A stretch of DNA of 64,000 nucleotides from a virus: IMG/VR virus record IMGVR_UViG_3300045988_052707, positions 15,837-79,836 of that record; one strand, given 5' to 3'. Position 1 is the stretch's first letter. Each line of letters begins with the position of its first letter. The position numbers were made by a program, and so were the translations under genes. Of this stretch, positions 7,904 to 46,469 are shown piece after piece. The notes under the pieces are model-generated. The model had not been told where the DNA came from. It made no database searches and was given only the letters and a program-made list of their open reading frames with translations.

Positions 7904-7967
7904 AAACTTGTAGATTAAATGTTTCTAAATGTAATCTCTTTAGATAAGTTAATCTGATTATAGGCAA

Positions 7968-8609
7968 TTACTTGCGACCTAGACCATTATAGAAATCAAG
8001 TATTGCATTCTCTTTACGAAGCCAAGTAGCCTGTTCTTTAGCCATATCAAGAATAGTACGACTAATAGATTCTTCTTCTACTTGCTCTTTAACTAACATA
8101 CCTTCATCCTTATCCTCTCCATTCAACCATTGGAATGTAGCCCAATCACTCTCTTTTTGAGCTTGGTCTACAATCTTATTAATACCACGAGTAGTCTCAA
8201 TCTCCCTATCTACTGTGGCAGCAAAGGGCATGACTCTATCAGTGATTTCAACATTAATGGCTGGAACAGGCGGATATTGGAACAGAGCATCGTTAGTGGT
8301 TAGATATTCAAATATCCAAGAATGATGCAAATATTCTTCCTTAGCACGACCTCTCCAGTAAATACCTAGCTTTGGTAAACCCTCTACTTCAAAGTAATTG
8401 GCAAAGGTCATATACAGAGCATGGTTGGCAAGTTCGGCTGACATCTGTTTTACCAACATCTCAACCATTACAGTTGATAGTGGGCAAACACGTCTAGACT
8501 TATCAATCACCTGCTCTGTATACTTCATAGTAGGTTCAGCGCCTACGGTTTGAACTCCTTCGCTTGTCTTCTCCTGTATTGGATTTCCGTCTTTGTCTAG
8601 CATTCTCAC
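7968..8609 (-). CDS. ferritin-like iron-storage protein
   Basis: Helix-by-helix similarity to bacterial ferritin FtnA (LxxQMxxELxxxxxY, WRGRAKEEYLHHSWIFEYL ~ RRHAQEEMTHMQRLFDYL, FQWLNGE ~ LQWYVSEQ); true start probably an internal Met. Confidence 0.55.
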   Translation of the reverse strand: MRMLDKDGNPIQEKTSEGVQTVGAEPTMKYTEQVIDKSRRVCPLSTVMVEMLVKQMSAELANHALYMTFANYFEVEGLPKLGIYWRGRAKEEYLHHSWIFEYLTTNDALFQYPPVPAINVEITDRVMPFAATVDREIETTRGINKIVDQAQKESDWATFQWLNGEDKDEGMLVKEQVEEESISRTILDMAKEQATWLRKENAILDFYNGLGRK

Positions 8610-38695: not shown

Positions 38696-38767
38696 TGCCC
38701 CATGTTGGACTCGAACCAACGCCATACAAGTTTAGAATTTGCTCTTCTACCACTGAAGTAATGGGGC
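38696..38767 (-). tRNA. suppressor-type tRNA, anticodon CTA (would decode amber UAG)
   Basis: Acceptor GCCCCAT/ATGGGGC, D-arm CTTC-AGTGGTA-GAAG, anticodon arm GCAAA-TTCTAAA-CTTGT (U33, A37; one A-C mismatch at loop-closing pair), T-arm GTTGG-TTCGAGT-CCAAC; 4 nt from the preceding CAT tRNA. Confidence 0.55.
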
Positions 38768-42779: not shown

Positions 42780-43160
42780 CTCTTTGTTTAAATTTATTGT
42801 TATGAGAGTCTTTCTTTATTCTAAACAATAAACAAGCGGCATTACGGCAATTGGACATGCGTTAATCCGCTCGCCACTTACAGACCGTAATGCACACTTG
42901 ACCAGGCAGGAAAGAGGTTTGCTTGGTGACCTATCTGCATGCTGATTATATAATGCAGACCGTGTAGATTCTCTCTTACACAATATCTATAGTAGATTTG
43001 CACTACTGTTTTCTGATGCTTAATCAGGCGAACTCTTACTGTTCGAATAGATACAGGTTTCAACTCTTTGATATAGCCTTTTAAGTCATAGACACACTCC
43101 GGAGTATGTCTACTGGTTCTTCAGACCAAGTTTTGCTACCACCATTCGTCAATAGTGGAT

Positions 43161-43856
43161 TTAAGGTATTAGATAGTCCACACGAAGGTCTACCGTCTCT
43201 TCGTTTGCTTCTAACACCACAGTCGTCGAAAGAATGTCAGGATTGTCAGCCGTAGTTATCATACTCACAATATCATGTGGGGATTCCAAGTATAAATAAC
43301 CTCTACCGTCCCAAGCTGGAACATATCCGCCTCGTAGAATGTTTCGAGACGGAATAGACTTATAATAATAGTGTGCTGGCCGGTAGTGAGCGAATGATAC
43401 GTTAATAGCTGATTGGTGTGTGCCTATGGTAAAACCACCCAGGACTGTTGCCAGTCTCATCACCTTACTAACGTATTTTGAATCGCCTACTACATCTAGT
43501 CTTATGTTCAAGCCTGGATAGTAGAATTTAGCAACTCTCCTACTTATATCCTTCAACGTTTGAAGAGATTGAAATTCAGCAACATCAACATAGTCTTTCT
43601 CCGATTCAGAACTACCGAAGATACAATTGATTGGTATTGGCTGATTAGCTTCAATACATTCTTCCAAAATAGTGATTGCTTCGGACGGAATAGCTTCATT
43701 ACCAAGTCTGATTCTCTTAGTCCCATATAAGATATGAGCTATAATCTGACTAAGTGGCAATGATAATTTCTCCTTGGCAAAGTTGCTTTCCAAATCATAT
43801 AGATATTGGCAAATGTGTGCACTGAATGGCGTGTTCCCTTGTACTGTAAACTTCAT
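43161..43856 (-). CDS. hypothetical protein
   Basis: 231-aa ORF. Confidence 0.5.
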   Translation of the reverse strand: MKFTVQGNTPFSAHICQYLYDLESNFAKEKLSLPLSQIIAHILYGTKRIRLGNEAIPSEAITILEECIEANQPIPINCIFGSSESEKDYVDVAEFQSLQTLKDISRRVAKFYYPGLNIRLDVVGDSKYVSKVMRLATVLGGFTIGTHQSAINVSFAHYRPAHYYYKSIPSRNILRGGYVPAWDGRGYLYLESPHDIVSMITTADNPDILSTTVVLEANEETVDLRVDYLIP

Positions 43857-44350
43857 ACTATCTGTTCAACTGTTATTAATTTAGTGATTCTGTAACCTCT
43901 TGATTTCAGGAATTTGATTGCTTCCATTTCAGCTTGTGTAATAGGAATCAGATGTTTGTCTTCTTCCGCTTCTGTAACAGCTTCCATTTCAGCTTGTGGC
44001 TTAGGTTTGGGAGGTGCTACATAAGTGCCAGCTTTAATAGCCATTCTCTTAGCATATGCATCTCTCTGTATCTTAGCCATTTCTTTCCTACTGATAGTTA
44101 TCAATTCAATGACTCTAGTCTTATACAAAGGGCCATGTTCTTTCCACATAAATCCTTTAGTATAGATAGCACCGTCAGGTTCAATCACTCCCTGCTTACG
44201 CAAAACAGCCATGAAGTTCTCTGGCCTTGGGAAGCCATTCTTCTTTAAATCCTTGACTACATCTGTAATCTTAAAAGGCCCAGGATTCATTGCCTTTACC
44301 GTGTTAAAAATCCGAACGATGTCATCGTCGGATATTGACCTCTTTCCCAT
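43853..44350 (-). CDS. hypothetical protein with Pro/Lys-rich linker
   Basis: 165-aa ORF, overlaps downstream gene by 4 nt. Confidence 0.5.
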   Translation of the reverse strand: MGKRSISDDDIVRIFNTVKAMNPGPFKITDVVKDLKKNGFPRPENFMAVLRKQGVIEPDGAIYTKGFMWKEHGPLYKTRVIELITISRKEMAKIQRDAYAKRMAIKAGTYVAPPKPKPQAEMEAVTEAEEDKHLIPITQAEMEAIKFLKSRGYRITKLITVEQIV

Positions 44351-44396
44351 AATTTCAATAACTTTTAGTGAAACAATTACTCTTTATATATTCTAA

Positions 44397-44650
44397 TTCG
44401 AGATTTACACAGATGTACACGCATTCGTTTAATCTCGGACAGAATCCAATTACGTCTGCATTGATGTAACCATGCAATTACATCCTCGTCAAATAATAAT
44501 TCTTGACCACAGTAGTATGTGCCACTGTAGTAAGTATCAAGCTTTGGTCTTAATATGTCATGAGGACTATCAGTAACTATGTATTGATAATCCTCACCCT
44601 TATTAATTTCAGCTTCTTTGACTCTTTACGAAGTTTCTTTAATAGCTTTA
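44397..44650 (-). pseudogene. disrupted small ORF (two frames: MKVKLLKKLRKESKKLKLIRVRIINT* then ...YIVTDSPHDILRPKLDTYYSGTYYCGQELLFDEDVIAWLHQCRRNWILSEIKRMRVHLCK)
   Basis: Protein-like translation continues in a different frame after an in-frame stop; no start codon in the longer frame. Confidence 0.3.
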
Positions 44651-44694
44651 CCTTCATTTTAGTAATTCCAATTAAGCGTTAATAATAGTGGACC

Positions 44695-44725
44695 ATCGCG
44701 GACTCGAACCGCGGTCTTCACAACT
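44695..44725 (-). other. tRNA 3'-fragment (perfect T-arm CGCGG-TTCGAGT-CCGCG + acceptor 3' strand ATGGTCC-A) without detectable 5' half
   Basis: No complementary GGACCAT or D-arm within 400 nt upstream; lies at the 3' end of a ~900-nt ORF-poor, hairpin-rich region. Confidence 0.35.
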
Positions 44726-45334
44726 CTAAATAACAAGATTACGTGTGTCTCTATTTTATTACATCAGCTGTTGAGTTCAGCATGTAGATAGTTTTACTAA
44801 GAAGCTGAGTGTTAATTCACCAATTACGTCTCCTCGTAAGGCTACGACTTAGTTGTTCACAAACTACCAAACTGGGCTTGACCGAACGGTCGCTCCACCA
44901 CTCCATTTACGTTGGAGAACGTCTATTTGTAACCCATAGCTAGGTAGTGGAGATTTCAGCTTACTAACTCTTAGAGTGTTCTGTTAATGACGTTTGTCAA
45001 TCCTCTTCTGTTTCTAGGTCTCTCCAATTAACCCGACTTAATCAATATAAATACTGATAAGCCAGCAGCTTAGGCTGCCATTCTTACTTCAGTGTTTCCA
45101 CTTAAAATTGTGCATCATTATTAAAGAGTTGGTGCCAACTCTACACGTCTTGCTACCCAGTCATCATGAATCAATTCCATGTATGGCCCATAAATGGCAT
45201 GATTATACTCTCATGCCAGGAGTCATTATGAATTTTAAAAATTTAGGGAGCACAAAATCACCAGTATCCTCCTGTGCCACATTGAGTGGCGTACCCATTG
45301 AGGACTTAGTAACTTATGAGCTATTTTGTTCCAT

Positions 45335-45688
45335 TTAAAATGGTAAGTTTCCTTCATGTTTCATCCAGCTATAAACTACAATTTCATAATCTGGGAAATC
45401 GTTAGCAAGTTTAACACAACTGTCAAACGATAACTCTGTTATGCATATAAGAGGGTAATCATTGTCAAGCCATTCTCTAATTACATCCTTATCAGGAATA
45501 TGCTCGTCCAATGACCATTTAAGCTCACGTTCAAGTCTTTCACGTACTGTATTCAATTTAATATGGTCATGCGTTCCATATATAACATTTAATATGTAAT
45601 ACAATAAATGGCTATTGAACTTATCAACATCGCTAATAAGAATATGCCTCTTGGCATTCCTTAAAGAATTAACTGCATTCTGATTCAT
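45335..45688 (-). CDS. hypothetical protein
   Basis: 117-aa ORF. Confidence 0.5.
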   Translation of the reverse strand: MNQNAVNSLRNAKRHILISDVDKFNSHLLYYILNVIYGTHDHIKLNTVRERLERELKWSLDEHIPDKDVIREWLDNDYPLICITELSFDSCVKLANDFPDYEIVVYSWMKHEGNLPF

Positions 45689-45755
45689 ACACTTATTAAT
45701 TAAAAGCCCAAGTGTGTTTCACAACATGACTGGGGCAAGCCTAAACTATACAAAA

Positions 45756-45836
45756 CTTTAAAATGATTGGGAGAGGATGGGAGATTCGAACTCCCACTAC
45801 TAGTTGTAACTAGCCTTCTACCATTAAACTAATCCT
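45756..45836 (-). tRNA. tRNA with encoded CCA; anticodon ambiguous (6-nt loop TTACAA between palindromic CTAG stems: TAC/Val or ACA)
   Basis: Acceptor AGAGGAT/ATCCTCT + discriminator C + CCA, T-arm GGGAG-TTCGAAT-CTCCC; Val is the only amino acid otherwise missing from the array. Confidence 0.45.
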
Positions 45837-45848
45837 CTCTTGGCATTA

Positions 45849-46469
45849 TTAACGCTTCACAGCTTCTTCAAAGTTCTTTACAATCTTCTCTGCCTTCTCA
45901 CGGGAACAGTCAAGCATGTGCATAGTAAGATGAATGCGCTGTTCACGCATCAAATCTTCTATGGCTCCTTCATTGCCTTCTCTAGCCTTGAGAGCTTTTA
46001 ATAGCTCTTCTGGCGTTTCAACACCTTCAACATCAGCACCGATAGCCTTAGATATATCCTTCAGAAACTCAAACAAAGCTTTTTCGCCTTCTTCGACTTT
46101 AAATGTAGAGCCTTGTCTTTGGTCTCTCATTTTCATAAGAATGTCAAAGATTTCACGGGCAGAAGCTTCGTCATCCTCATTCAGAGTGACAGCATGACGT
46201 TCATGAGGTTGCACACGAATAGATTCGTCTTTAACTTCCATAACGAGCAAGTCTTTACCGTCTCCACGAACAATGATAATTTCACGGTCTTTCCTTTCAT
46301 CATAACCGCCACCAACAGTGAAATTCTTGTAAGGAACTTCTTTGCCTTCAGCGGCATCGAGCACATGCCCAAGAATAGTTTCAGCTTCTTCTACGATAGA
46401 ATCATAGCATGGGTCTTTCTTTGGATTGAAATCAATACCAGCTTTCAGGCGTTCTTGTAATTTCTTCAT
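45849..46469 (-). CDS. hypothetical acidic protein
   Basis: 206-aa ORF. Confidence 0.5.
   Translation of the reverse strand: MKKLQERLKAGIDFNPKKDPCYDSIVEEAETILGHVLDAAEGKEVPYKNFTVGGGYDERKDREIIIVRGDGKDLLVMEVKDESIRVQPHERHAVTLNEDDEASAREIFDILMKMRDQRQGSTFKVEEGEKALFEFLKDISKAIGADVEGVETPEELLKALKAREGNEGAIEDLMREQRIHLTMHMLDCSREKAEKIVKNFEEAVKR

What the first reader, a model, noticed from the sequence alone, without database searches (positions are those of the whole stretch)
44397..45335. ~900-nt ORF-poor, hairpin-rich region with orphan tRNA 3' fragment and a frame-disrupted small gene
No ORF ≥60 aa exists on the gene strand. A protein-like reading (…YIVTDSPHDILRPKLDTYYSGTYYCGQELLFDEDVIAWLHQCRRNW…) lacks a start and follows a short MKVKLLKKLRKE… ORF in another frame. 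There is a perfect T-arm/acceptor 3' half (44695-44725). There are strong hairpins (GAGTTGG-tgc-CAACTC at ~45131-45147, GGCAGC/GCTGCC at ~45071-45088). This could be a decaying gene, a structured ncRNA, or the remains of an intron or tRNA.
Basis: seen in the sequence. Interest (0 to 1): 0.5.

Follow-up and report, generated by a model that had tools for sequence, protein, structure and literature searches.

The report
Unusually long phage-encoded tmRNA gene
The "ORF-poor, hairpin-rich" stretch is a complete 501-nt transfer-messenger RNA (ribosome-rescue RNA) gene carried by a large gut phage; this is a known kind of gene, but from a long phage lineage that the standard detection tool misses, and it is followed by a small conserved gene broken by a one-base deletion.

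Summary
Window 44689-45189 (minus strand) is a full-length, standard one-piece tmRNA gene. Rfam RF00023 scores it 66.6 bits against a gathering score of 47, E = 3e-25. I found 43 unique homologues (501-601 nt) on large gut-phage contigs. All keep G3·U70, discriminator A, a complementary T-stem and a tag ending (R/K)MAA. The acceptor, T-arm and helix 2 covary. ARAGORN detects none of the 43. The tmRNA lies beside the phage's 30-tRNA block. The family shares an invariant 27-nt core in an expanded pseudoknot region, and that core is essentially absent from bacterial genomes. The small gene (44377-44657) is an intact 93-aa ORF in relatives. The window has lost one G from a GGGG run, either by mutation or assembly error. 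Verdict: a real feature and a known kind (phage tmRNA), but a new and apparently undescribed member lineage. Moderate interest.

The parts
44689..45189 (-). tmRNA (ssrA-like) gene, 501 nt from G1 to discriminator A. The next bases are CUA, so CCA is not encoded.
   Evidence: Rfam RF00023 scores 66.6 bits against a gathering score of 47, E = 3.4e-25, model positions 1-374 of 374. 43 unique homologues were found.
45183..45189 (-). Acceptor stem, 5' strand GGGCCAU. It pairs with 44690-44696 and includes G3·U70.
   Evidence: All 7 pairs are canonical in 43 of 43 sequences. Positions 5-7 covary and G3·U70 is invariant.
45143..45170 (-). Helix 2, 5' strand (tmRNA nt 20-47). It pairs with 44717-44746.
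   Evidence: 20 pairs are 98-100% paired across 30 sequences, and 10 pairs show changes on both sides.
45112..45142 (-). Pseudoknot 1. Loop bases GCA pair with the downstream UGC.
   Evidence: Rfam alignment. Stem 1 is invariant. Stem 2 has one C-G to U-A compensatory pair.
45070..45099 (-). Tag reading frame GGA AAC ACU GAA GUA AGA AUG GCA GCC UAA, encoding (A)GNTEVRMAA*. The resume codon G91 is preceded by UAAGU.
   Evidence: All 43 family tags end (R/K)MAA followed by UAA. Synonymous variants are seen: GGA/GGC, and GCC/GCG/GCU.
45065..45078 (-).
   Evidence: 100% paired in 30 sequences but invariant, so there is no covariation information.
44747..45064 (-). Expanded pseudoknot (PK2-PK4) region. 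It includes a 148-nt stretch where the Rfam model has 31 nt.
   Evidence: Rfam alignment. The family's length variation of 501-601 nt lies in discrete blocks here. My own helices P and Q are only weakly supported.
44895..44921 (-). Invariant 27-nt core CGUUCUCCAACGUAAAUGGAGUGGUGG inside the expanded region.
   Evidence: Identical in all 30 aligned sequences, whose mean column identity is 64%. A 22-mer from it occurs in 1 of 185,579 species genomes, on a phage-like MAG contig.
44697..44713 (-). T-arm CGCGG-UUCGAGU-CCGCG.
   Evidence: 7 stem variants occur in the family and all are perfectly complementary. 3 of 5 pairs covary.
44689..44696 (-). Acceptor 3' strand AUGGUCC plus discriminator A.
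   Evidence: The discriminator is A in 43 of 43.
45190..45334 (-). 145-nt non-coding leader between the upstream 117-aa gene and the tmRNA. It has two hairpins. The proximal one, UGGCAUGA-gaguauaa-UCAUGCCA (45195-45218), ends 5 nt before G1.
   Evidence: MFE is -39.7 kcal/mol, z = -2.98, and 1 of 200 shuffles folds as well. A hairpin just upstream of G1 recurs in most lineages with different sequences. No sigma-70 consensus promoter was found.
44377..44657 (-). Small conserved hypothetical gene, 93 aa when intact. Its frame is broken by the loss of one G in the G run at 44597-44599.
   Evidence: The ORF is intact in L001, L003, L005, L009, L012, L018, L027, L039, L048, L060, L061 and L068. L018 reads ATAAGGGGTGAGG where the window reads ATAAGGGTGAGG. 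There are 119 homologous clusters, mostly 93 aa, with no Pfam or PHROG match.

Best explanation
Window 44689-45189 (minus strand) is a functional, standard one-piece tmRNA gene belonging to the phage.

Proposed mechanism:
- The precursor is transcribed with, or like, the neighbouring phage tRNAs.
- It is trimmed at G1 and after the discriminator A, and receives CCA from a CCA-adding enzyme.
- Host alanyl-tRNA synthetase charges it with alanine through G3·U70 and A73.
- With SmpB (none is encoded in this window, so presumably the host's) it enters the empty A site of ribosomes stalled on broken or stop-less mRNAs.
- Translation resumes on the internal frame at GGA (window 45099), appends A-GNTEVRMAA and terminates at UAA (45070-45072).
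- This frees the ribosome and marks the peptide with a C-terminal Ala-Ala degron.

For the phage, this most likely keeps ribosomes available during infection. It would be part of the same translation-support module as its 30 tRNAs.

Shown here: the sequence and structure determinants, family conservation and covariation, and tag conservation.
Inferred, not shown: expression, processing, charging, SmpB use, the fate of tagged proteins, and the benefit to the phage.

The adjacent small ORF is a separate conserved gene of unknown function, inactivated in this sequence by a 1-nt homopolymer deletion.
For: - Rfam RF00023 gives a full-length match above its gathering score, E = 3.4e-25.
- In 43 of 43 unique homologues the 7-bp acceptor is canonical, positions 5-7 covary, and G3·U70 and discriminator A are invariant. 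Seven T-stem variants are all complementary.
- The structure I specified is 92.7% paired, against 39-46% for slid controls. 18 pairs change on both sides (controls 2-8), and the covariation score is 0.275 (controls 0.05-0.08). Helix 2 has 10 covarying pairs out of 20.
- The resume codon is at nt 91 (E. coli: 90), preceded by a U-A-R motif at -5 to -3, as in the E. coli UAGUC|GCA that I recall.
- The stop codon lies in the helix 5 loop.
- Tags vary at the N-terminal end but all 43 end (R/K)MAA-UAA, with synonymous codon changes.
- The tag has the same length (9 codons), the same Gly resume codon and the same terminal Ala-Ala as the native Bacteroides tag GETNYALAA. Ala-Ala-COO- is the main ClpXP determinant (PMC7652416).
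- The gene sits beside or inside tRNA blocks in the window and in relatives.
- 27 of the 30 window tRNAs also lack an encoded CCA.
- Phage tmRNAs are an established class (PMC7162821).
Against: - There are no expression or processing data, and no recognisable sigma-70 promoter upstream.
- CCA is not encoded.
- No SmpB was found in the 64-kb window. The test was weak: tblastn with an E. coli SmpB sequence recalled from memory, best E = 1. The rest of the genome was not seen.
- ARAGORN rejects all 43 family members.
- Only 3 of 12 related loci pass Rfam's gathering score with default filters.
- The folds of PK2-PK4 are unresolved, and my candidate helices around the invariant core are weak at 75-86% paired.
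- The Arg-Met preceding Ala-Ala differs from the usual Ala-Leu, so proteolytic targeting in the host is assumed rather than shown.
Confidence: 0.85

Rival explanations
1. It is a real, expressed tmRNA, but its role is not simple extra rescue capacity. It competes with the host tmRNA to change what happens to stalled ribosomes or tagged proteins. It could carry a phage-specific degron (RMAA), act as a sensor, or act as an inhibitor of host trans-translation. The invariant 27-nt core would bind a phage or host factor.
For: - The tag end RMAA is fixed across the family and differs from the Bacteroides YALAA.
- A 27-nt block is invariant while the rest diverges to 64% column identity. It is absent from bacterial genomes apart from one phage-like MAG contig.
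- There is a precedent for a phage tmRNA-like RNA that inhibits host tmRNA: mycobacteriophage DS6A, cited in PMC11915505.
Against: - Unlike DS6A's tag-less form, this one keeps a complete tag frame with a resume context, a stop codon and an Ala-Ala end, which are the features of a working tagger.
- No partner protein was identified. The adjacent 93-aa gene is not consistently linked and is broken in the window.
Confidence: 0.12
2. It is a decaying or non-functional tmRNA copy, for example a captured host gene or an att-site remnant that phages often carry because they integrate into ssrA.
For: - Phages commonly integrate at tmRNA 3' ends (PMC11915505).
- L058 has a 25-nt duplicate of the tmRNA 3' end about 645 nt downstream.
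- ARAGORN rejects the gene.
Against: - The gene is full length, not a 3' fragment.
- 43 unique variants preserve all identity elements and the tag, with compensatory changes, which indicates purifying selection.
- The family core is not found in bacterial chromosomes.
Confidence: 0.02
3. The frame break in the small gene is decoded rather than lethal. That could be a programmed -1 frameshift, or doublet decoding of GU at AGG|GU|GAG by the neighbouring tRNA with a 6-nt anticodon loop (anticodon 'AC', 45768-45838).
For: - The odd tRNA is conserved in three different genomes: the window, L018 and L048.
- The only frame-A codon beginning with GU in the overlap region lies exactly at the break.
Against: - L018 and L048 carry the same odd tRNA but have intact ORFs.
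- The window differs from the L018 allele only by GGGG to GGG.
- There is no slippery heptamer.
- The vast majority of the 119 homologue clusters are intact 93-aa proteins.
Confidence: 0.02

Closest known systems
Bacterial standard (one-piece) tmRNA / SsrA, Rfam RF00023
   Same: - A tRNA-like domain with G3·U70 and A73, and a T-arm with a UUCGAGU loop.
- A long helix 2 and PK1 just before the resume codon.
- A resume codon at about nt 90 preceded by U-A-R.
- A short tag ending Ala-Ala, with the stop codon in the helix 5 loop, followed by a pseudoknot region.
   Different: - It is 501 nt (family 501-601 nt), against a 374-position consensus.
- About 117 extra nt sit in the PK2 area, including a 27-nt invariant core not found in bacterial genomes.
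- The tag ends RMAA rather than the usual ALAA.
- CCA is not encoded.
- It is carried by a phage beside its tRNA block.
- ARAGORN does not detect it.
Native Bacteroides SsrA tag GETNYALAA (bioRxiv 10.1101/2025.03.18.644028)
   Same: Nine encoded residues, a Gly resume codon (GGT there, GGA here), Thr at position 3 and a C-terminal Ala-Ala. This fits a Bacteroidota host.
   Different: The residues in between differ: NTEVRM here, ETNYAL there. The usual Tyr-Ala-Leu is replaced by Val-Arg-Met. Other family members use an Ala resume codon, for example AEIAPVRMAA. The RNA bodies could not be compared here.
tmRNAs of huge phages (Al-Shayeb et al. 2020, PMC7162821)
   Same: A phage-encoded tmRNA accompanying many tRNAs and other translation-related genes. 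The proposed role is ribosome rescue during infection.
   Different: - Those were found with ARAGORN, which finds none of this family.
- Some huge phages also encode SmpB, and none was seen in this window.
- These contigs are about 80-270 kb, with many at 183-192 kb, and their replication helicases are nearest to crAss-like or Bacteroidota phages.
Intron-form tmRNA genes (group I intron in the TψC loop; PMC11915505)
   Same: Relative L014 has a group I intron after T-loop U2 (RF00028, 94.4 bits). By my numbering this is the paper's 'position 3' subsite, which it reports only from class Bacteroidia.
   Different: - The window gene is uninterrupted.
- L014's intron is about 862 nt with a 194-aa ORF on the opposite strand, giving a gene of 1,448 bp.
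- That is longer than the longest tmRNA gene (1,152 bp) and the longest tmRNA intron (under 700 bp) reported in that database.
Mycobacteriophage DS6A tag-less tmRNA-like RNA (cited in PMC11915505)
   Same: A phage-borne tmRNA derivative that interacts with the host trans-translation system.
   Different: DS6A's RNA is a minimal form of about 65 nt with no tag frame and acts as an inhibitor. The window gene is a full, expanded tmRNA with a conserved tag frame.

Membership tests
tmRNA, standard one-piece form (Rfam RF00023) | Covariance-model score at or above the curated gathering score, over the full model | tested here: met
   66.6 bits against 47, model positions 1-374 of 374, E = 3.4e-25. 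The match is also found in the whole-window gathering scan.
tmRNA, standard one-piece form (Rfam RF00023) | A tRNA-like domain: a 7-bp acceptor stem formed by the 5' and 3' ends, plus a T-arm with a 7-nt UUCGAnU loop | tested here: met
   GGGCCAU pairs with AUGGUCC, and the T-arm is CGCGG-UUCGAGU-CCGCG. Both are canonical in 43 of 43 homologues, with compensatory changes at acceptor positions 5-7 and in 3 T-stem pairs.
tmRNA, standard one-piece form (Rfam RF00023) | Alanine identity: a G3·U70 wobble pair and discriminator A73 | tested here: met
   G3·U70 and discriminator A are present in the window and in 43 of 43 family members. Actual charging was not tested.
tmRNA, standard one-piece form (Rfam RF00023) | An internal tag reading frame with no start codon. 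The resume codon is about 90 nt from the 5' end, and the tag is short and ends in Ala-Ala followed by a stop. | tested here: met
   GGA at nt 91 opens the frame GNTEVRMAA-UAA. All 43 tags end (R/K)MAA-UAA, and synonymous substitutions are seen.
tmRNA, standard one-piece form (Rfam RF00023) | Helix 2 connecting the tRNA-like domain to PK1 | tested here: met
   20 bp, 98-100% paired, with 10 pairs changed on both sides.
tmRNA, standard one-piece form (Rfam RF00023) | Pseudoknot PK1 immediately upstream of the resume codon | tested here: met
   It aligns to the model's PK1. Stem 1 is invariant. Stem 2 (GCA/UGC) has one C-G to U-A compensatory pair. A sub-lineage has a shorter hairpin (GAGC-GCAA-UCUC) in which stem 2 is not evident.
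tmRNA, standard one-piece form (Rfam RF00023) | Pseudoknots PK2-PK4 downstream of helix 5 | tested here: inconclusive
   The region is present and expanded (318 nt). The post-tag hairpin covaries. My long-range helices P and Q are only 86% and 75% paired with almost no compensation, and the invariant core gives no covariation information.
tmRNA, standard one-piece form (Rfam RF00023) | A 3'-terminal CCA, either encoded or added | not testable with these tools
   CCA is not encoded: the window has CUA, and only 1 of 43 family members encodes CCA. 27 of the 30 phage tRNAs also lack it. PMC11915505 notes that CCA is 'not always' encoded.
tmRNA, standard one-piece form (Rfam RF00023) | Works with the partner protein SmpB in trans-translation | not testable with these tools
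   No SmpB-like ORF was found in the window by tblastn with a recalled E. coli SmpB, best E = 1. The rest of the phage genome and the host were not available.
Permuted (two-piece) tmRNA | The acceptor 3' strand and T-arm are encoded upstream of the 5' acceptor strand and tag | tested here: not met
   The gene order is standard, running from the 5' acceptor through the tag to the T-arm and 3' acceptor. Permuted Rfam models did not outscore RF00023.
Intron-form tmRNA | A group I intron interrupting the TψC loop | tested here: not met
   The window's T-loop is continuous and there is no RF00028 hit in 43800-46200 at E up to 1. The feature is met in relative L014 only.
crAss-like phages, Zeta-type (context only) | TerL, MCP and portal phylogeny within Crassvirales. 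Genome of 155-190 kb with a tRNA block and suppressor tRNAs. | tested here: inconclusive
   - Hallmark structural genes were not examined.
- DnaB and the SNF2 helicase are nearest to crAss-like or Bacteroidota phages at only 25-31% identity.
- The window has 30 tRNAs including Sup-CTA.
- Many family contigs are 183-192 kb.
- These traits match the published descriptions (PMC7886860, PMC12386605). Neither paper mentions a tmRNA.

The most novel reading that the evidence does not exclude
This is a phage-specific, structurally expanded tmRNA lineage of 500-600 nt. It has an invariant 27-nt core and a fixed RMAA tag end, and is widespread in large crAss-like gut phages. It does more than top up host ribosome rescue. 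It re-routes trans-translation in infected Bacteroidota, for example by imposing a degron with different protease or adaptor specificity, or by recruiting a factor through the invariant core, so that the phage controls the fate of stalled ribosomes and truncated proteins.
Probability: 0.15. Interest if true: 0.65.

Novelty: new member of a known kind. Interest (0 to 1): 0.38.

Why it matters
Phage tmRNAs are known, so the class is not new. Three practical points follow.

1. **An annotation blind spot.** ARAGORN finds 0 of 43 members. It is the tmRNA detector used by Pharokka, by the huge-phage survey and, in large part, by the curated tmRNA database. Rfam's default scan reports only some family members. 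So this gene is probably missing from most annotations of these abundant gut phages. The two crAss-like Zeta/Epsilon papers I could read do not mention a tmRNA.

2. **A tractable comparison.** The family offers a Bacteroides-length tag with a different, fixed C-terminal motif (VRMAA against YALAA). It also has an invariant RNA element of unknown role. Both are testable in Bacteroides with existing reporter tools.

3. **A record-length relative.** L014's intron-containing gene (1,448 bp, intron about 862 nt) exceeds the published size records for tmRNA genes and tmRNA introns.

Tried and rejected
- **Doublet decoding or programmed frameshift** of the small gene by the neighbouring 6-nt-loop tRNA. 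Rejected: L018 and L048 have the same tRNA but intact ORFs, and the window is a GGGG-to-GGG deletion.
- **tmRNA as a companion of the amber-suppressor tRNA.** Not supported: Sup-CTA is visible only in the window's closest subgroup, and not in other tmRNA loci that show 12-25 tRNAs. The loci are partial, though.
- **TAG or TGA recoding as the reason for the ORF-poor region.** Rejected: treating TAG as sense raises stop-to-stop coverage only from 0.68 to 0.71.
- **A phage SmpB in the window.** None was found, but the test was weak.
- **The 93-aa protein as a paralogue of the 231-aa neighbour via 'SPHDI'.** Not significant, E = 0.027 over 11 residues.
- **Pfam and PHROG searches on the small protein and its neighbours.** Nothing informative.
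- **A sigma-70 promoter or intrinsic terminator around the tmRNA.** None was found. The only 'terminator-like' hit is helix 5 read on the wrong strand.
- **My candidate long-range helices P (165-169/237-241) and Q (242-246/289-293)** around the invariant core. Weak support.
- **L058 and L057 as intron-bearing.** Wrong: both are uninterrupted, and L058 has a 25-nt 3'-end duplicate downstream.
- **** used too short a gap and was uninformative. **** timed out.
- **A named phage genome matching the window at DNA level.** None.
Full report
**What is there**

The window is a phage-like stretch. Almost all its genes and 30 tRNA genes lie on the minus strand, including a CTA-anticodon suppressor.

In 44397-45335 there is no minus-strand ORF of 60 aa or more. 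An Rfam scan of 43800-46200 reports a full-length transfer-messenger RNA (RF00023) at 44686-45189 on the minus strand. It scores 66.6 bits against a gathering score of 47, with E = 3.4e-25 and model positions 1-374 of 374. The match also passes the gathering threshold in a whole-window scan. ARAGORN finds no tmRNA, either in the whole window or in the region alone.

**Anatomy**

| Part | Window coordinates | Notes |
|---|---|---|
| Acceptor 5' strand GGGCCAU | 45183-45189 | Pairs with the 3' strand, giving G1-C, G2-C, G3·U |
| Helix 2 (20 bp, three segments) | 45143-45170 with 44717-44746 | |
Loop GCA pairs with the downstream UGC |
| Tag frame | 45070-45099 | Resume codon GGA at tmRNA nt 91 (45099), preceded by UAAGU |
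The UAA stop sits in its loop |
| Expanded pseudoknot region | 44747-45064 | 148 nt where the model has 31 |
| T-arm CGCGG-UUCGAGU-CCGCG | 44697-44713 | |
| Acceptor 3' strand AUGGUCC + discriminator A | 44690-44696, 44689 | The next bases are CUA, so CCA is not encoded |

The tag frame reads GGA AAC ACU GAA GUA AGA AUG GCA GCC UAA, which encodes GNTEVRMAA*.

**Is it a real, constrained gene?**

Exact-motif scans of IMG/VR found the 3' end in 12 contigs, the 5' end in 12, and a conserved internal 24-mer in 65. From these I extracted 43 unique full-length homologues of 501-601 nt. The window copy is the shortest.

- In all 43, the seven acceptor pairs are canonical. Positions 5, 6 and 7 change on both sides: C-G/U-A, A-U/U-A, and U-A/A-U/G-C.
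- G3·U70 and the discriminator A are invariant.
- Seven different T-stems are all perfectly complementary.
- CCA is encoded in only one.

On a 30-sequence alignment (A1), RNAalifold recovers helix 2, the PK1 hairpin, helix 5 and the T-arm, with 29 compensated pairs.

A structure I specified was tested by pair counts:

| Measure | Structure | Slid controls |
|---|---|---|
| Cells paired | 92.7% | 39-46% |
| Pairs changed on both sides | 18 | 2-8 |
| Covariation score | 0.275 | 0.05-0.08 |

Helix 2 (10 of 20 pairs covary) and the T-arm (3 of 5) carry most of the signal. PK1 stem 2 has one C-G to U-A swap. My two candidate helices around the conserved core are weak, at 86% and 75% paired.

The tags differ at the N-terminal end: GNTEVRMAA, GNTTYRMAA, AEIAPVRMAA, A(T/A)YSEVRMAA, AERSD(V/Y)RMAA, AEIDYNRMAA and ANTSVRMAA. 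All end (R/K)MAA followed by UAA. Synonymous variants occur at the Gly resume codon (GGA/GGC) and at the last Ala (GCC/GCG/GCU). The bases before the resume codon keep a U/C-A-R-N-U pattern. From memory, this corresponds to the U85-A86-G87 context that sets the resume codon in E. coli.

**What is unusual**

1. **Size.** The family is 501-601 nt against a 374-position consensus. The extra length sits in discrete blocks of the PK2-PK4 region.
2. **An invariant core.** Within that region a 27-nt block, CGUUCUCCAACGUAAAUGGAGUGGUGG (44895-44921), is identical in all 30 aligned sequences, although mean column identity is only 64%. A 22-mer from it occurs in one of 185,579 species genomes. That hit (L071, a MAG labelled uncultured Clostridium sp.) is a 30-kb contig carrying a complete family tmRNA among five tRNAs, which points to a binned phage fragment.
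3. **Detection.** ARAGORN detects 0 of 43 members. Rfam's default gathering scan reported only 3 of 12 related loci.
4. **The tag.** It has nine codons, a Gly resume codon and a terminal Ala-Ala, like the native Bacteroides tag GETNYALAA. It replaces Tyr-Ala-Leu with Val-Arg-Met. Ala-Ala-COO- is the dominant ClpXP determinant (PMC7652416).

**Context**

The tmRNA lies about 3.8 kb from the main tRNA block and 579 nt downstream of another tRNA. In L028, L044, L051 and L070 it runs directly into tRNA genes. 27 of the 30 window tRNAs also lack an encoded CCA.

The 145-nt leader (45190-45334) is more structured than shuffles, with z = -2.98. A hairpin ending a few nt before G1 recurs with different sequences in most lineages. 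No sigma-70-type promoter was found.

The window is not TAG-recoded, and tblastn with a recalled E. coli SmpB found nothing.

No named phage matches at DNA level. The DnaB and SNF2 helicases are nearest, at 25-31% identity, to crAss-like phages and other phages of Bacteroidota. Many family contigs are 183-192 kb. These traits resemble the published Zeta crAss-like group: a tRNA block, CTA/TCA suppressor tRNAs and genomes of 155-177 kb (PMC7886860, PMC12386605). I did not test membership. Neither paper mentions a tmRNA.

Phage tmRNAs as a class are documented in huge phages (PMC7162821).

**The small gene**

Downstream of the tmRNA, ATG 44657 opens MKVKLLKKLRKESKKLKLIRVRIINT*. The conserved continuation lies in the -1 frame and ends at 44377.

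Twelve related loci have an intact ORF of 93 aa (88 aa in L018), beginning MKA(R/K)LLKKLRKES(K/E)KLKLIRGEDYQYIVTDSPHD. L018 reads ATAAGGGGTGAGG where the window reads ATAAGGGTGAGG. So the window has lost one G of a G run (44597-44599).

The protein has 119 homologous clusters, nearly all 93 aa, and no Pfam or PHROG family. This is a single homopolymer indel, either a real mutation or an assembly error. It is unrelated to the RNA.

I tested one attractive alternative. The tRNA at 45768-45838 has a 6-nt anticodon loop (UUACAA, which ARAGORN reads as anticodon 'ac'), while its homologues are ordinary tRNA-Arg(GCG). Reading GU as a doublet at AGG|GU|GAG would restore the frame. But L018 and L048 carry the same odd tRNA and have intact ORFs, so the idea fails.

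**Mechanism and rivals**

The best-supported reading is a working tmRNA. It would be processed like the phage tRNAs, receive CCA, be alanylated through G3·U70/A73, be delivered by SmpB (host-encoded as far as this window shows) to stalled ribosomes, add A-GNTEVRMAA and terminate at UAA. This would recycle ribosomes during infection. The sequence determinants and their evolutionary constraint are shown here. Expression, charging, SmpB use and tag fate are inferred.

The main rival, at about 0.12, is that the RNA works but re-routes trans-translation rather than supplementing it, through the fixed RMAA end or the invariant core. Pseudogene or att-remnant readings are contradicted by full length and covariation.

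A link to the amber-suppressor tRNA is not supported. Suppressors are visible only in the window's closest subgroup.

**Verdict**

It is not an intron or tRNA remnant.

The feature is a new member of a known kind, from an apparently undescribed, ARAGORN-invisible phage lineage with an expanded body and a distinctive tag. Interest is moderate (0.38).

Noticed in passing
window 45768-45838 (-); also L018 3100-3170 and L048 3292-3360: This tRNA has only 6 nt in its anticodon loop (UUACAA, which ARAGORN reads as anticodon 'ac'). Rfam scores it 48.6 bits as a tRNA. The same form occurs in three different phage genomes, while homologues in 11 other loci are normal tRNA-Arg(GCG) with the loop UUGCGAA. 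Its function is unknown. It does not correlate with the frameshifted small gene.
   Followed up: partly
L014 7186-8633 (IMGVR_UViG_3300045988_023864): This relative's tmRNA gene is 1,448 bp. A group I intron of about 862 nt (RF00028, 94.4 bits) follows T-loop U2 (GGUU|...G|CGAGUCC). A 194-aa ORF lies on the opposite strand inside it (7955-8539) and may be a homing endonuclease, which I did not test. PMC11915505 reports the longest tmRNA gene as 1,152 bp, no tmRNA intron over 700 bp, and introns at this subsite only in Bacteroidia.
   Followed up: partly
window 43050-43158 (-): A RAGATH-34 RNA (RF03103, 113.7 bits against a gathering score of 60.7) lies between the 564-aa gene and a 231-aa gene. 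The 564-aa gene matches PHROG 850 'RNA-binding protein', with a weak DUF2828 hit. The same RNA is present in L002, L003, L006, L009, L010 and L011.
   Followed up: no
window 38695-38767 (-): A CTA-anticodon (amber suppressor) tRNA, which ARAGORN labels Pyl. The 64-kb window shows no sign of TAG recoding. [quoted passage not shown]
   Followed up: partly
window 45249-45322 (-), core ~45262-45299: A conserved element of about 40 nt in the tmRNA leader, AAUGGGUACGCCACUCAAUGUGGCACAGGAGGAUACUG, forms part of a long hairpin. L001, L005, L025 and L027 share it even though L025 and L027 have a different tmRNA acceptor stem, which suggests mosaic recombination. Its role is unknown.
   Followed up: partly
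L058 (IMGVR_UViG_3300045988_042102), ~645 nt downstream of its tmRNA: A perfect 25-nt duplicate of the tmRNA 3' end lies downstream of a complete 566-nt tmRNA. This is the signature expected if a small mobile element inserted at the tmRNA 3' end.
   Followed up: no
Alignment A1 (30 family tmRNAs): The family is mosaic. Several modules occur in different combinations among genomes, consistent with frequent recombination inside the gene. These are the acceptor type, the PK1 type (a long pseudoknot or a short GCAA-loop hairpin), the tag module, and three or four insert blocks.
   Followed up: partly
L006 285-358: A RAGATH-1 hammerhead ribozyme (RF03152, 82.6 bits) lies in a related phage locus about 6 kb from its tmRNA.
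   Followed up: no
L071 (CALEBD010000016.1, MAG 'uncultured Clostridium sp.'): This is the only bacterial-genome hit to the family core. It is a 29.8-kb contig with a complete family tmRNA among five tRNAs, so it is probably a phage contig binned into the MAG. It should not be read as host evidence.
   Followed up: partly
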